Below, one piece after another: positions 3,406 to 53,360 of a DNA stretch of 64,000 nt. This DNA comes from the human T2T-CHM13v2.0 reference genome, Homo sapiens. Below the pieces are notes generated by a model. It was not told where the DNA came from. It did no database searches and saw only the letters and a program-made list of their open reading frames with translations. The position numbers and the translations under genes were made by a program. The DNA is taken from NCBI RefSeq assembly GCF_009914755.1, contig NC_060932.1; one strand, 5' to 3'. Numbering within the stretch: the first letter of the stretch is position 1; the number at the start of each line of letters is the position of its first letter.

Positions 3406-9268
<5,863 letters not shown>

Positions 9269-14364: not shown

Positions 14365-14474
14365 ATTCCAAAATGAACCTGAACGATTTCATCAGTATGG
14401 ATCCCAAGGTAGGATGGGGCGCCGTCTACACACTATCCGAATTTACACATCGGTTTGGCAGTAAAAACTGCTGA
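14365..14474 (+). CDS. NTAQ1: NTAQ1 last coding exon: (D)[35 protein letters not shown]
   Basis: tttttaag acceptor, phase 1; TGA at 14472-14474 gives the 205-aa protein. Confidence 0.97.
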
Positions 14475-15085
14475 ACTTGGCCTCAAGATGTGGAACTGTG
14501 GAGAAATTCTAGGACATGAACAAGCTATCCTTTCATCGAGGACAGCAAACATTATGGTACAGTTGGCTTGGAATTATGTCTTTCTCTTTTAATTTGATTG
14601 AGTGGAAATCTGAGTGAGTACAAATATAAATGAACAACATAAAAACTTTTGTTTTGACATGTCAAATTGAAACTTGATAAAGTGCGTACTTGCTAAGATA
14701 TTCCTGTGGCTCATGCGTTACAACACGAGGACTTAAGCCAGTAATCGTTTTTGTTCAGATAGAGGTGTGGAGGTAGAGCCAGCCCCTCATGTCTGTTCTG
14801 GATGTTTTGTGTCTCTCCAGCTACACTGTAAGTTCCTTGAGGGCAGGGCCATGGCCCATTGCTCTGTGAATCTCAAATGCCCATAAAAGGTGCCCATAAA
14901 ATGTTTTCTTGAACATTTGAATGTGCTGTTGTCTGGAAAGGGGTAATATTGTGAGCTGAATCAGCAATAAGTATTAGTCTTTTTGGACTATGGTATTGTT
15001 AAAAAGACTGCAGCCCTCTCAGACTTGAGCGTTAATTGGCTTATTTATTTATGGCTTTAAATAAAATCGATTTAACGTTAGTTTT
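14475..15085 (+). other. NTAQ1: NTAQ1 3' UTR (end approximate)
   Basis: Alu-free sequence from the stop codon to the AATAAA at 15060. Confidence 0.75.
15060..15065 (+). terminator. Polyadenylation signal AATAAA
   Basis: Canonical hexamer with U-rich upstream sequence and GU/U-rich downstream element (gttttgtttt, tttttgtgt). Confidence 0.75.
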
Positions 15086-19214: not shown

Positions 19215-19383
19215 TAATTTTTTTTGTGTGTGTGTTTTTATTATAGTAGAGACAGAGGTTCACCATGTTGGCCAGGCTGGTCTCAAACTCTGGCCTCAAG
19301 TGATTCCCCCCACCTCAGCCTCCCAAAGTGCTGGGATTACAGGCATCAGCCACTGCAACTGGCCCATTCTCTTCTTTTTCTAG

Positions 19384-20932
19384 AGCAGGAGTTGGCAAAT
19401 GTTTTCTGTAAATGGCCAAACAGTAAATGTTAGACTTTGCAGGCCATAAGGCCTCTGCCACAACTACTTAACTCTGCCTTTGTAGCCGAAAACAGCAGCC
19501 ACAGACAATATGTAAATGAATAGGTGTGGCTGAGCTCCAATAAAACTTTGCAAAACCTGGGTCTCCTTTCTTGTCTTTGGAGCCCTCCTCCCTCTGTGTC
19601 TGTACAGGAGAGCTTTTTCCTTCTTTCTTCTCTCTTCTTTCTTGCCTTTTAAACACTCTGCTCCTTAAAACCACTCCAACTGTGTCTGTGTTGTTTTATC
19701 CAATTCGCGCAAGACGAGCCCTGGTGCTCCTCCACTCATCGGAGCCGTATCAGTGCCATCTTCAAAGCAGAGACCAAGTCCTCACCAGACAACATAATCT
19801 GCTCAGCCCTGATCTTGGACTTACAGCCTCCGCAACAGACTCTGTTCCAACTATGAACTTAGGAAGTTAAGGAAAAACATGGATTTCTTTTTCCAACTAG
19901 AAGCTGGACATCCTAAGTGATTGGTTGGAGGAGTATGTTTGGTTTTCTCTGTCTGGTTCCACGTTGAAAGTAAGAACAACAACAACATTGGGGAAGCCTG
20001 CAAGTTTTGACCACGTCCTGATCTCTCCATGCTGATTGCCGCCGAGCTGGGGGTCAGGGTTCTGTTATCATCTGTGCCCTGTTCATTGTCTGCTTGAATA
20101 TTCTGTCTATCTATAGAGAGGAAGAACAATAACCTTCATTATCAGAAACCTCATTCTAAGTTTACTTTTCTGTCTAGGTGTCCTTGTACTTTTTAAATAT
20201 ATAAATATGCTTTTTTCACTGAGTAGCAATAGAAGTAGTATTTTTGCTAGGCTTGAGTTGCTTACTATTAAAAAAAATTATACTTACATTTTTATAATAA
20301 AACCTAATCTTAGGCTCAGATGCACATACAACTAAAGAGCAGTGCTTGTCTTTTGCTTAATGTTCATATTACAAGGTTAACTTTTATTTATAATTAATAT
20401 ATGAACGTGTTTTTTTTTTAAAAAATACACAATGTGATGGATAAATCTAATGTCCTTTTTGATAATCACCCTGGTTTTAAGAATATAACTGTCTAGAGAA
20501 ACTAACTAATAGAGCTCATTGTGTATTATCTAGAAGTCATTGTATGCCAGGCAATTTTCTGACAATCTGATGGGGTTGGCACTATTTTTAATCCCTATTT
20601 TACAGATGAGGAAACTGATGCAGAGAGAGGTTTTCATATAGCTCACCAAGTCACTAGCCAGTAAGTAGTAGAGCCAGGATTCAAATTAAGGACAAAAAGC
20701 ACCTGAGAAGCTTCATGCTGCTTTCTGATCACCTCCTTACTCCCTAAGGGTAACCACCATCCTGCTTTCTAACTGCATACATTCATTGTGCCTCTTTCTG
20801 TATTTTATATAATTTCATATAAAAATATGTTTGTATATGGCAGAAAAAAATAACAAAAAACAAAAAACAACTTTGCAAAACCAAGAGCTGGTAGATTTGG
20901 CCCTTGGGCTGTAGTTTGCTGTCCCTTGTTCT
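19384..20932 (+). mobile_element. MER58A split into 19384-19557 and 20869-20932 by a 1.3-kb insertion
   Basis: caggagttggcaaa 5' TIR, aataggtgtggct...ccaataaaacttt, resuming with gatttggcc...tagtttgctgtccct 3' TIR. Confidence 0.85.
19558..20868 (+). pseudogene. Processed retrocopy of an LTR-initiated, probably spliced non-coding transcript
   Basis: 14-bp TSD aactttgcaaaacc (19544-19557, 20869-20882), degenerate A-tail ~20842-20868, mosaic LTR / MaLR exon / unique / MIR / L1 content. Confidence 0.8.
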
Positions 20933-21334
20933 ACAGCGATAGAGCTGTGACTGGTGTGTGGCTGCTCTGCCATGGACTACATTTCCCATTCTCCTTTGCA
21001 GCCAGTGTGGCCATGTGACCAGCTGAATATAAGAGGAAGTGTGTGTGCCACTTACATGACTGACCTGTGAAACTCCTGCCCACTCCTTCACACCTTTGCC
21101 TACTTTCTTACCAGATGAAATGGTGATGACTGGAGTGACCTCGGAAGCTACTTATCAAAGGCAGAAGAGCCACCATCAGCCTGGATTCCTGATAACTCTA
21201 TGGAGCCGAGTTGCATGCCTGCCTAAATAGTATATTGTGGAACTCTTTCATAGGAGACAAACTTATGTATTTTTTAAGTCACAGAATTCTTGGTGAGTTT
21301 TGATTTGGCCGTTTAGTCCTCCCTAAATAATTCA

Positions 21335-50796: not shown

Positions 50797-51812
50797 TAAA
50801 CTCATGAGCTCGTGATCTGCCCACCTTGGCCTCCCAAAATGCTATGATTATAGGTGTGAGCCAGTGCGCCCAGCCTATTGCCCCCATTTTACAGATGAAG
50901 AAATGAAAGCACAGAGAAGGTAAGGAATTTGCAACAGTAGCATAACTGGCATTTGAACCCAAATCAGTATGATTTTATAACCTATGTTCTTACTTGGTAT
51001 GCTATACCCTTGTAGGGCTGTTGTGAAGATTACAGGACACAACGTAATGTATGTAACAAACTTATCAAAGGCCCAGGTCCATGATAAGCATCACAATTAA
51101 TTCCAGGTATTATTTACATGTGTAAGCAAAATAATGCTGGTTTTTCATATAAGTAGGTGATGCTACTCATCCTCTTGACGTATTAATAAGACACGCAGCA
51201 CTTAATGCTCTTAAGTATCTAATTATTTGAAAAGAATTGAATAGCAGTAGTGATGATTGGTGCTAAATATATTTATATTATGCAGCATTTCAGTGAGGCT
51301 GAAGATACAATAATGGTGACAGTTGATTGGGTTAGAGAGTTTGTAAACAAGTAAAGGAAACTGGTCTACACTGAGATAAAGTCTGCAATGTTGACCGTAT
51401 TAACCATTGCTTCATAGAGTCTGTAAAATGACCATATAACGTATGTAACAAATATTGCACCAAATGCCTGCTTTCTCAGACTCAAAGCCTGTAGGGACAC
51501 AATATTAGGTAAGACTTAATCCTTTTGCTCATGGAATTTACAGTCTAGTAGAGAATTAAAAATAAAAAGAAATCTTTGCAAATTTGATAAGTGCCACCAA
51601 GAAAATAATCAAAGAGTTAAGATACAGAGTAATGGAGTTGGGACATGGGGAGGAGGGTCTGGATCCTACTTTGTATGGGGTAGTAAAGAAAGGCTTCCTG
51701 TAGTAGGTGACATTTAAGACCAGATGATGGGAAAGAACCTAGGAAGAGGGAACAACACACACAAAAGCTCTGAGGTGGGGAAGAGCTTGACGAGTTCGAG
51801 GAGCTGGAGGAT

Positions 51813-53360
51813 TGTTACCCATATAATGGTTGGGTTCAGTTGCTTGGTGGGTGAACATCTTTACAGATGAAGAAATGAAAGTACAGACAAGGAATTTGCA
51901 AGAGTAGCAACTGACATTTGAACCTAAATCAATATGATTCCATATAACATATGTTCTTAGTTGGTATGCTATACCCTTGTAGGGCTATTGTGAACCCAGT
52001 GACCACAATGAAGGAGAATGTAACAATGGGGTTTTAGTACTTGCAACAAGTAAGAACACTGGGGACAGTTCCCAAAGTAGTGTCTCCTGGAATGAAGGTG
52101 AAAGCAGGGCTTTTATTGTGCCACTGGCTGAGTCATTGCATATAAAGGTGGGGTAAAGGTAGTGCAGGTGCAGGCGCAGATTCTGCTTCTTCACACATGG
52201 CATGTATTGAAAATGGTAAATAGAAAAATATCGACAGGCTCAGGGAAAATGCTGGCTTCAGTCCCGAGTGGCTACAATGCCTCTTTAATAAATTCCAGTC
52301 TTCTTTATGGAATCGGTTAACCCCTTTATTAAGCCCTCTCTTGCTTTTATGTCTTGTATTGATATTTGGACCCTGCATACACAATACTATAACTCAAATT
52401 GTTTCTTCTCTCCTAGAAGGAATCAATTTCCAAATAGTGCTGTAAACTGAACCACACATGGACACGCCATTCTTCCGAGGACCCTTAGATCGGCCCCAGG
52501 AGGAGCCCTAGCTGCTGTTCCCCATTCGATGCCCTTTTTCAGCAGGAAGTAGCCAGAAGGAGTCATTGCCCAAAACCCCCTAACAGCAGTTAGTGTGGCT
52601 TCTCCGCAGGGGGGGATGTCATAGGAGTTACTAAGAAATTATTTTAGGCAGATAGAGAGGAAAAGGGGTCCTTGGGAAGTTTTCGTTTTTTAAAGCATCC
52701 CCAGAAAAGTTTCTTGTAAAGCTGCGGCTCCTAGAGCCAGGTCGGCAACCTTTGATATGCAAATGCAAGCCATTAGAAACTGAGTCCGCCCAAACATGGC
52801 GATTCCCGCAGGCCTTCTTGCCCTTTCCCCACAGGTTCCTGGCAACATGGCCGCCCCCACGTATCCCCACGTGTGTAGAACATCATGGTGCCCTGCATTT
52901 GCATATTAAAAGGCTAGGGTGGGAGGACCAGCTTTTTTGAGGGCTGTGTGAACGACATGCCCAGTCAAACCCATCCCCTGAGCCCTATGCAAATCAGACA
53001 CCGCCTCCTCCAGCCTCTGTATATATACCTAGCTGGTATCTGTGGCAGGTGGGGTTCCCTCTATCGGCTTTGGAGCCTCCCTCCCTCTGTCTCTGTACAG
53101 GGGAGCTTCTTACTTCTCCCTTCCTTCTTGCCCTTTCTTGCCTATTAAATTCTCCGCTCCTTAAAAAAAAGAAAATGAAAATGGAGAATAGGCTCCTCCC
53201 TGGATGGGCTTTTTAGTATGGTAATGCTGAGAGCTCACCAAAATTCATCTCTAACTGAGGCATCTGTCTTCCAGCTGGTTTTGGTTTTGCTATAGCTGGG
53301 CTTCTTCCTGGAACAACGGAAGCTCAAGGCACAACAGTTACAAGTGGTTACCCTATCACA
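51813..53360 (-). mobile_element. ERV1-class LTR hosting two later insertions (51856-51994 and 52224-53176)
   Basis: tgttacc ... atcaca termini; sequence appears continuous once the inserts are removed; family uncertain. Confidence 0.55.
52224..53176 (+). mobile_element. ERV1 env 3' end + PPT + U3-R LTR, polyadenylated processed copy
   Basis: 52224-52511 translates ...LLLLCLVLIFGPCIHNTITQIVSSLLEGINFQIVL*TEPHMDTPFFRGPLDRPQEEP*; PPT then TGT at 52617; ATTAAA at 53144; A-tail; 15-bp TSD with 2 mismatches. Confidence 0.85.

What the first reader, a model, noticed from the sequence alone, without database searches (positions are those of the whole stretch)
19544..20882. Apparently full-length retrocopy of an LTR-promoted, spliced non-coding RNA inserted into MER58A
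Seen: MER58A is interrupted by 1.31 kb flanked by an exact 14-bp TSD (aactttgcaaaacc) at a T/AAAA site. The insert ends in TATAAA (20818) plus a degenerate A-tail. It starts with the R-U5 part of an ERV1 LTR (19558-19752). This start aligns with position 53050 of the related LTR in this window, 30 nt downstream of that LTR's TATATATA (53020), i.e. at the expected TSS. An 84-bp MaLR fragment follows (19753-19836); its ends coincide with the aag|gcgccatc acceptor and agaact|gtgag donor positions of the MaLR consensus as I recall it. Unique, MIR and L1 sequence follow. Inference: L1 retroposed a germline or embryonic LTR-driven spliced lncRNA, leaving a fossil of a transcript that may be unannotated or extinct. 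Repeat masking would fragment it and hide it.
Basis: partly seen in the sequence, partly recalled or inferred. Interest (0 to 1): 0.8.

Follow-up and report, generated by a model that had tools for sequence, protein, structure and literature searches.

The report
Retrocopy of LTR-driven spliced noncoding RNA
A 1.3-kb insert downstream of NTAQ1 is an L1-made DNA copy of a two-exon non-coding RNA that started at a solitary retroviral LTR 74 Mb away on the same chromosome; this is an ordinary kind of genomic fossil, but it preserves an ancient promoter start, splice and poly(A) site to the nucleotide.

Summary
Window 19558-20868 is flanked by an exact 14-bp duplication. It ends in an A-rich tail and interrupts one copy of a dispersed repeat.

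The source locus is in the same assembly, at chr8:50,098,855-50,100,247. There, a complete solitary 625-bp ERV1-type LTR, flanked by a 4-bp GTGC duplication, sits inside a MaLR-like repeat.

- **Start.** The insert begins 26-28 nt downstream of that LTR's TATA-like box.
- **Splice.** It lacks exactly one 102-bp GT-AG intron, whose donor is the repeat's own GTGAG.
- **End.** It stops at the source's cleavage site, 24 nt after TATAAA.

One point was wrong: the LTR/MaLR junction is a retroviral integration junction, not a splice. There is one intron, not two.

Two independent R-only retrocopies of the same LTR family start within 1 nt of the same position, which confirms the transcription start.

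Divergence (K2P 0.092) suggests an insertion roughly 20-40 Myr ago. The copy has no promoter and no ORF longer than 42 aa, so it is most likely inert.

In passing, the LTR at 52.6-53.2 kb belongs to a second L1-processed copy (env tail-U3-R-poly(A)). At least eight such copies of this family exist.

The parts
19372..19543 (.). Left part of the interrupted host repeat (MER58-like DNA-transposon fossil; name recalled)
   Evidence: 2,320 candidate copies in the assembly, of which 40 were scored (the window's own copy plus 39 others at 76-83%). Paralogues are contiguous across the insertion site.
19544..19557 (.). 5' copy of the target-site duplication AACTTTGCAAAACC (nick site AAT/AAAA at 19541/19542)
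19558..19752 (+). R-U5 of an ERV1-type LTR. It starts at the LTR's transcription start (LTR position 428-430 of 625) and has no U3
   Evidence: Aligns to parent L016 4855-5052. 12 of 12 other family copies checked carry U3. Two R-only retrocopies start at positions 428 and 429.
19753..19837 (+). MaLR-like repeat segment that forms the rest of exon 1. It is contiguous with the LTR in the parent through an integration junction with a GTGC target duplication
19837..19838 (+). Exon 1 / exon 2 junction. The parental 102-bp GT-AG intron (L016 5138-5239) is absent
19838..20842 (+). Exon 2 (about 1 kb): single-copy sequence, a MIR-like segment (about 20585-20690) and an old interspersed-repeat segment (about 20735-20842)
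   Evidence: Only one other genomic copy, the parent, at 89-90%. Repeat segments.
20818..20823 (+). Poly(A) signal variant TATAAA, 24 nt before the end of homology
   Evidence: The parent has the same hexamer, a CA cleavage site and a GU-rich stretch just downstream.
20843..20868 (+). Degenerate poly(A) tail (26 nt), absent from the parent
20869..20882 (.). 3' copy of the target-site duplication
20883..20935 (.). Right part of the interrupted host repeat

Best explanation
Window 19558-20868 is a dead-on-arrival processed retrocopy made by the L1 machinery from a polyadenylated, once-spliced, non-coding RNA.

The RNA was transcribed from chr8:50,098,855-50,100,247 of the same assembly. Its transcription unit is built almost wholly from repeats:
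- Promoter: the U3 and TATA-like box of a solitary ERV1-type LTR.
- Exon 1: the LTR's R-U5, read past the LTR's own ATTAAA signal, plus 85 nt of the MaLR-like element into which the LTR had integrated.
- Splice donor: the GTGAG that this MaLR family carries.
- Intron: 102 bp.
- Exon 2: about 1 kb, ending at a TATAAA/CA site inside an old interspersed repeat.

L1 endonuclease nicked AAT/AAAA in a MER58-like element. The poly(A) RNA was reverse-transcribed to its cap end, and a 14-16-bp target duplication was left.

Shown: the parent locus, intron loss, both ends, the TSD, the A-tail and the transcription start. Inferred: expression in the germline or early embryo at the time (needed for inheritance), an age of roughly 20-40 Myr, and present inertness (no U3, no ORF).
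For: 1. **Hallmarks.** There is a 14-bp exact TSD, an A-rich tail and an AAT/AAAA site.
2. **Parent locus.** Homology to it covers exactly 19559-19836 and 19838-20842 and nothing of the flanks. The unique exon-2 part has only this one other copy in 3.1 Gb (5 of 5 candidates scored).
3. **Parent structure.** The parent carries the full LTR with U3 upstream, a 102-bp GTGAG...TTGCAG intron that the copy lacks, and no A-tail.
4. **Intron origin.** The start of the intron continues the same MaLR-like repeat. All 38 other family matches listed span the donor position, and 6 of 6 aligned paralogues have GT(G/A)AG there.
5. **5' end.** It lies 26-28 nt after CATATAAG. Two independent R-only retrocopies with their own TSDs and poly(A) start at LTR positions 428 and 429.
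6. **Solitary LTR.** It has a GTGC/GTGC duplication, and no second LTR or env lies within 10 kb. In paralogue L040 the two MaLR halves are in register.
7. **Non-coding.** The longest + strand ATG ORF is 42 aa. Rfam finds nothing in the parental 10 kb.
8. **Neutral decay.** K2P is 0.092 overall. Polarised R-U5 changes are 9 on the copy and 11 on the parent.
Against: - No outgroup genome was available, so no orthologous empty site was seen. The age rests on a molecular clock alone.
- No expression data were available, so the parental RNA is known only from this fossil.
- The junction base differs: parent G, copy A. This reads as CpG decay but is one mismatch at the splice junction.
- The copy has one G fewer than the parent in the GGGG run at its 5' end, so the start is defined to within +/-1-2 nt.
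- R-U5 is more diverged (p=0.139) than exon 2 (p=0.078), and this is only partly explained by CpG sites.
- The LTR part alone does not single out the parent. A chr20 copy is equally close at 87%. Assignment rests on the MaLR piece and exon 2.
Confidence: 0.93

Rival explanations
1. The copy is a 5'-truncated retrocopy of a longer transcript that began upstream of the LTR. The coincidence with the LTR start site would then be chance.
For: L1-made copies are often 5'-truncated (established knowledge). No CAGE or RNA data were available.
Against: The end lies 26-28 nt after a TATA-like box. Two independent R-only retrocopies of the family begin within 1 nt of the same LTR position. A chance truncation within +/-1 nt of that point in a roughly 1.3-kb RNA is about 3 in 1,300.
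Confidence: 0.03
2. DNA-level duplication or gene conversion between the two chr8 loci, followed by a 102-bp deletion.
For: Both loci are on chr8 and on the same strand. Apart from the intron they are colinear.
Against: Homology stops exactly at the transcript ends. An A-tail absent from the parent follows. A 14-bp TSD lies at an L1-type site. The missing piece is bounded by a consensus donor and acceptor.
Confidence: 0.01
3. One reading: two or more introns, with the MaLR piece as a separate internal exon spliced to the LTR.
For: The MaLR piece begins at aag|gtgccatc, which resembles an acceptor context.
Against: In the parent the LTR end and the MaLR piece are adjacent. The 4 bp GTGC is duplicated on both sides of the LTR, and the MaLR-like element continues upstream of the LTR.
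Confidence: 0.01
4. The retrocopy is not inert. It has been co-opted, for example as part of NTAQ1 long-isoform processing (it carries a sense TATAAA signal) or as a transcribed non-coding element.
For: It lies in the sense orientation between alternative NTAQ1 exons at 14365-14556 and 21115-21292 (hub annotation).
Against: No annotated exon overlaps 19558-20868 (hub annotation). It has no U3. Derived changes are as frequent on the copy as on the parent (9 versus 11), as expected for neutral decay.
Confidence: 0.05

Closest known systems
L1-mediated processed pseudogenes (retrocopies) of mRNAs
   Same: TSD of 14-16 bp, a poly(A) tail placed right at the parent's cleavage site, intron loss, no promoter, and a TT/AAAA-like target.
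   Different: The parent is a short, repeat-built non-coding RNA driven by a solitary LTR, not a protein-coding gene. Three phrase searches for catalogues of retrocopies with lncRNA parents found none. One of them returned a single unrelated paper and one seven papers using the phrases in other senses. Retrocopy reviews seen (PMC5470649, passages) define retrocopies through mRNAs.
HERV-W processed pseudogenes (R-U5 ... U3-R-poly(A), made by L1)
   Same: The 5' end is an LTR that starts at R and lacks U3, exactly the signature listed in PMC5537654 (passages read). The TSD and poly(A) also match.
   Different: After U5 the RNA does not continue into viral genes. It continues into host DNA, is spliced from a MaLR donor and ends at a host poly(A) site. 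The LTR family is not HERV-W (judged from recall of LTR17, not tested).
LTR-initiated host transcripts and lncRNAs (for example solo-LTR promoters in oocytes and zygotes, PMC5538554; search listing and abstract only)
   Same: A solitary LTR supplies the promoter and first exon, and splicing runs into downstream host sequence.
   Different: Here the evidence is a DNA fossil of the RNA rather than RNA data. The family is ERV1-type rather than ERVL/MaLR. Tissue and current activity are unknown.

Membership tests
L1-mediated processed retrocopy | Target-site duplication of about 7-20 bp flanking the insert | tested here: met
   14 bp exact at 19544-57 and 20869-82.
L1-mediated processed retrocopy | 3' poly(A) tail that begins at the parent's cleavage site and is not encoded in the parent | tested here: met
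   Homology ends at 20842 / L016 6247. A 26-nt A-rich tail is present in the copy only.
L1-mediated processed retrocopy | Loss of parental intron(s) at GT-AG boundaries | tested here: met
   The 102-bp intron L016 5138-5239 (GTGAG...GCAG) is absent.
L1-mediated processed retrocopy | Insertion at a TT/AAAA-like endonuclease site | tested here: met
   AAT/AAAA at 19541/19542.
L1-mediated processed retrocopy | Empty site in an outgroup species | not testable with these tools
   No primate genomes are held. Only paralogous copies of the host repeat show an uninterrupted site.
ERV1 (gamma-type) LTR | TG...CA ends and a 4-bp target duplication | tested here: met
   The parent LTR runs TGTT...ATCA and is flanked by GTGC/GTGC. 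5 of 12 other copies show exact 4-bp duplications.
ERV1 (gamma-type) LTR | Association with gamma-type viral genes | tested here: met
   The sister LTR at 52625-53163 is preceded by a polypurine tract and an env C-terminus matching Pfam TLV_coat (27.6 bits against a cut-off of 22.5, profile 515-559 of 560).
ERV1 (gamma-type) LTR | Named Repbase/Dfam family (possibly LTR25/HERVG25) | not testable with these tools
   One proviral 5' LTR is followed by a primer-binding site complementary to the tRNA-Gly(GCC) 3' end. Repbase lists HERVG25 with LTR25 (PMC5753468, passage). Reading the G as Gly is my inference, and no consensus library is held.
MER58A (hAT DNA transposon fossil) as host of the insertion | Match to the family consensus | not testable with these tools
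Only shown: a dispersed repeat with 2,320 candidate copies, whose paralogues run through the site.
MaLR (MLT1-like) LTR as source of the splice donor | Family-wide GTGAG at the position used as donor | tested here: met
   6 of 6 aligned paralogues have GT(G/A)AG there. All 38 listed matches span the site. The family name itself is recalled, not tested.

The most novel reading that the evidence does not exclude
The retrocopy may be one of a set showing that this Gly-primed ERV1 family was a strong germline promoter whose RNAs were repeatedly captured by L1. The RNAs are of three kinds: viral 3' ends (U3-R-poly(A)), bare R transcripts of LTRs, and at least one LTR-driven host lncRNA.

That would make it a second HERV group mobilised by L1. 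The review read here states that this capacity is unique to HERV-W. It would also mean that ancient germline start sites, splice sites and poly(A) sites of LTR-driven RNAs can be read directly from such fossils. The parental unit at chr8:50.10 Mb still has its TATA-like box, donor, acceptor and poly(A) signal intact and might still be expressed.
Probability: 0.35. Interest if true: 0.55.

Novelty: new member of a known kind. Interest (0 to 1): 0.35.

Why it matters
- **A dated record of an RNA.** The copy shows that, some tens of millions of years ago, a solitary LTR acted as a promoter in cells of the germ lineage. Its own poly(A) signal was read through, a MaLR-borne donor was spliced, and an old repeat supplied the terminator. 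The start, junction and end are all known to the nucleotide.
- **A check on annotation.** Repeat masking would split this copy into four or five unrelated repeat hits and hide it.
- **A possible wider pattern.** The side observation of at least eight L1-processed copies of the same ERV family bears on the published view that only HERV-W RNAs were mobilised by L1.
- **The event itself is ordinary.** It follows textbook L1 trans-mobilisation, and the copy is most likely without function.

Tried and rejected
- Rfam at gathering thresholds found no family in the parental 10 kb.
- An inverted-repeat scan meant to show the terminal inverted repeats of the host element gave only AT-rich chance pairs.
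- Three literature searches for retrocopies with lncRNA parents found no such catalogue. One gave 0 papers, one gave 1 unrelated paper, and one gave 7 papers using the phrases in other senses. The wider search returned general retrocopy reviews.
- A search for a Gly-primed HERV group gave nothing relevant. One search was a term-syntax error.
- I looked for an APOBEC-type G>A excess on the copy to explain the higher R-U5 divergence. Only 1 of 9 polarised changes on the copy is G>A.
- Of the nine non-window A-run candidates from the R-end pattern scan, L047 has no homology to the LTR and L058 is ambiguous. Both were dropped from the count of processed copies.
- In the paralogue checks the second flank could not be found in many copies. 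The right MER58-like flank was missing in 5 of 9 paralogues and lay 151 nt away in one (L024). The upstream MaLR flank was missing in 4 of 8.
- Naming the LTR, MER58A, MLT1, MIR and L1 pieces needs a repeat library that is not held. The annotation of the parental locus was not available.

Full report
**What is in the window**

AACTTTGCAAAACC occurs at 19544-19557 and at 20869-20882. The repeat finder reports this pair as its top direct repeat: 19 nt at 89% identity, with a 14-nt exact core. If extended two bases 5', the duplication is 16 nt with one mismatch, and the implied first-strand nick is AAT/AAAA.

Between the copies lie 1,311 bp. They end in TATAAA (20818-20823), 24 nt further on in ...ATGGCA (20842), and then in a 26-nt degenerate A-tail (20843-20868).

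**The host repeat**

The left flank (19372-19557) belongs to a dispersed family with 2,320 candidate copies. Forty were scored: the window's own copy plus 39 others at 76-83%.

The right flank could be placed in 4 of 9 paralogues examined. In three of these (L026, L028, L030) it lies 22-26 nt after the end of the left-flank match, where about 20 nt are expected for an uninterrupted site. In L024 it lies 151 nt away, and in five it was not found. A MAFFT alignment shows the three paralogues running ...CCAATAAAACTTTATTTACAAAAACAG...GATTTGGCCC... straight through, with the window's two halves overlapping by the duplicated motif.

So one old element was split by an insertion. The name MER58A is recalled and cannot be tested here.

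**The parental locus**

A search of the window's own assembly with the insert found one other place that matches beyond the LTR part. It is chr8:50,098,857-50,099,136 (87%, insert positions 2-279) together with chr8:50,099,240-50,100,247 (90%, positions 281-1285).

With 250-bp flanks included, homology covers only window 19559-19836 and 19838-20842, and nothing of the flanks. The single-copy part of the insert (19837-20540) has just this one other full-length copy in 3.1 Gb. All 5 candidates were scored, and the other three are 63-127-nt matches at 71-80% to a small old repeat.

**Structure of the parent** (L016 = chr8:50,094,001-50,104,000)

- **LTR.** A complete 625-bp LTR occupies L016 4428-5052 (TGTT...ATCA) and is flanked by GTGC on both sides (4424-27 and 5053-56). 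A TATA-like CATATAAG lies at 4827-4834. The LTR's own ATTAAA signal lies about 85 nt into the transcript.
- **Start.** The retrocopy's first bases, TGGGTCTCC, align to TGGGGTCTCC at 4855. This is 26-28 nt after the first T of TATAAG.
- **LTR/MaLR junction.** The alignment runs without a break through the end of the LTR into GTGCCATCTTCAAAGCAGAGACC... up to L016 5137.
- **Intron.** The parent then has 102 bp (5138-5239: GTGAGAAATAAG...TCTTTCATTGCAG) that the copy lacks.
- **Exon 2.** The alignment resumes at GACTCTG (5240 = window 19838) and runs to 6247.
- **End.** After 6247 the parent continues TATTTTGTGGAGTGTTATGTTTT, a GU-rich stretch, while the copy has its A-tail.
- **Junction base.** The only irregularity is the last exon-1 base, which is G in the parent and A in the copy. 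It sits in a CG dinucleotide.

**Why the LTR/MaLR junction is not a splice**

The parental LTR interrupts a MaLR-like repeat. A query spanning L016 5044-5200 has 565 candidate copies, of which 40 were scored. All 38 matches other than the parent and the retrocopy span the donor position.

In an alignment of six paralogues, the sequence upstream of the LTR (...CATGTGAGGAAG..TAAGGTGC) and the sequence downstream (GTGCCATCTT...) meet as CAAGGTGCCATCTT with a single GTGC. All six have GT(G/A)AG where the parent's intron starts, and the repeat ends at ...GGACTAAGACA inside the intron.

In paralogue L040 the two halves lie 16 nt apart, where 14 are expected. The upstream half was found in 4 of 8 paralogues. 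No second LTR and no env lie within the 10 kb.

The LTR is therefore a solitary LTR that integrated into the MaLR-like element.

**The 5' end is the transcription start**

Twelve of 12 other family copies examined carry U3. Ten are near full length, and none starts at R.

A pattern scan for the R end followed by an A-run gave 75 matches, against 6 for the reversed control. Ten of these, including the window's own copy, showed an A-run. I examined the nine non-window candidates.

- Seven, like the window's own copy, end at LTR position 541 followed by poly(A): L045, L050, L051, L054, L055, L056 and L057.
- L047 is unrelated and L058 is ambiguous.
- L051 (chr6:21.56 Mb) and L057 (chr17:50.25 Mb) contain only LTR positions 429-541 and 428-541 plus 17-22 A. 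They are flanked by AAATT(T)CAC and by GATACAGA(C/T)CT duplications respectively.

These are retrocopies of bare R transcripts, and they begin within 1 nt of where the window's copy begins (428-430). Three independent capture events thus agree on the start site, so the copy is full-length.

**Nature of the RNA, and age**

- The longest ATG ORF on the + strand of the copy is 42 aa.
- Rfam finds no family in the parental 10 kb.
- Exon 2 contains a MIR-like segment (104 candidate copies).
- Exon 2 ends inside an old repeat. Four of 14 paralogous matches to that repeat run through the cleavage position.

| Region | p-distance |
|---|---|
| R-U5 | 0.139 |
| MaLR part | 0.060 |
| Exon 2 | 0.078 |

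Over all 1,269 aligned sites the K2P distance between copy and parent is 0.092, or 0.079 without CpG sites. With 11 other LTR copies as reference, 9 R-U5 differences are derived on the copy and 11 on the parent, and 7 could not be polarised. Only one G>A falls on the copy. This gives equal branches and no editing signature.

At commonly used neutral rates of 1.2-2.2 x 10^-9 per site per year (recalled), 0.046 per branch corresponds to roughly 20-40 Myr. That is the era of the catarrhine ancestor. This dating is inference.

**Mechanism and present state**

All hallmarks are those of L1 acting in trans on a poly(A) RNA. An LTR-mediated route would leave LTRs on both sides and a 4-6-bp duplication.

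The copy lacks U3. It lies in the sense orientation between alternative NTAQ1 exons (hub annotation), and no annotated exon overlaps it. I read it as inert (confidence 0.93 for the origin; co-option about 0.05).

**Comparison with what is known**

The structure equals a processed pseudogene. Its R-U5 start is the signature listed for HERV-W processed pseudogenes (PMC5537654, passages read). The difference is that this RNA left the LTR for host sequence and was spliced.

Phrase searches for retrocopies with lncRNA parents returned 0, 1 and 7 papers, none relevant. A retrocopy review defines the class through mRNAs (PMC5470649, passages). This does not show that such copies are undescribed, because subscription journals are not searched.

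I file it as a new member of a known kind.

**In passing**

Window 52224-53175 is itself an L1-type processed copy of viral RNA. From 5' to 3' it contains:
- An env C-terminus (...FGPCIHNTITQIVSS...*, Pfam TLV_coat at 27.6 bits against a cut-off of 22.5).
- A polypurine tract.
- U3-R of the same LTR family, ending 19 nt after ATTAAA in an A-run.

It is flanked by TGAAAATGG(T/A)(A/G)AATAG at 52208-23 and 53176-91. Counting this one, at least eight copies of the family end in R-poly(A).

The review read states that, among known HERV groups, only HERV-W RNAs are mobilised by L1.

One provirus-like copy (chr16:29.99 Mb) has a primer-binding site complementary to the 3' end of a tRNA-Gly(GCC) gene. 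Repbase lists an HERVG25/LTR25 pair (PMC5753468, passage). Whether this is that family is untested.

**What remains open**

- Outgroup empty site.
- Expression and annotation of the parent.
- Repeat family names.
- A full census of processed copies.

Noticed in passing
window 52208-53191: A second L1-type processed copy. It holds a 5'-truncated ERV RNA 3' end: an env C-terminus (Pfam TLV_coat), a polypurine tract, and U3-R of the same LTR family. It ends 19 nt after ATTAAA in an A-run and is flanked by a 16-bp duplication matching at 14 of 16 positions (52208-23 / 53176-91). RefSeq marks enhancers at 52295-53296 over it.
   Followed up: partly
L045, L050, L051, L054, L055, L056, L057 (chr1, chr4, chr6, chr1, chr10, chr16, chr17 of the assembly): Seven further copies of this LTR family end at LTR position 541 followed by poly(A). 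Two of them (L051, L057) are bare R transcripts with TSDs. A review (PMC5537654) states that only HERV-W is mobilised by L1, so this family may be a second case. The census is incomplete, because one pattern scan with at most 2 mismatches supplied the candidates.
   Followed up: partly
L013/L060 (chr16:29,991,242-29,991,458) and L011 (chr16:30,001,499-30,001,686): A provirus-like pair of LTRs about 10 kb apart. The 5' LTR is followed by TTT and an 18-nt primer-binding site complementary to the 3' end of tRNA-Gly(GCC), with two CpG-type changes. This suggests a Gly-primed ERV1, possibly Repbase HERVG25/LTR25 (name untested).
   Followed up: partly
window 50875-51030 and 51845-51997: Two copies of a roughly 150-bp segment, 76-94% identical in blocks and about 967 bp apart in direct orientation. 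They include a MIR-like TTTACAGATGAAGAAATGAAAG core. This looks like a local duplication and is not explained.
   Followed up: no
window 19895-19970 (inside exon 2 of the retrocopy): A roughly 76-nt stretch matches three other genomic places at 71-80% (chr6, chr14, chr7). It is probably a small ancient repeat inside the otherwise single-copy exon.
   Followed up: no
window 52740-53010 and L016 4570-4810: The U3 of this LTR family carries three ATGCAAAT / ATTTGCAT octamer-like motifs upstream of the TATA box. They are conserved between the window's LTR and the parental LTR and are possible POU/Oct factor sites (motif identity recalled).
   Followed up: no
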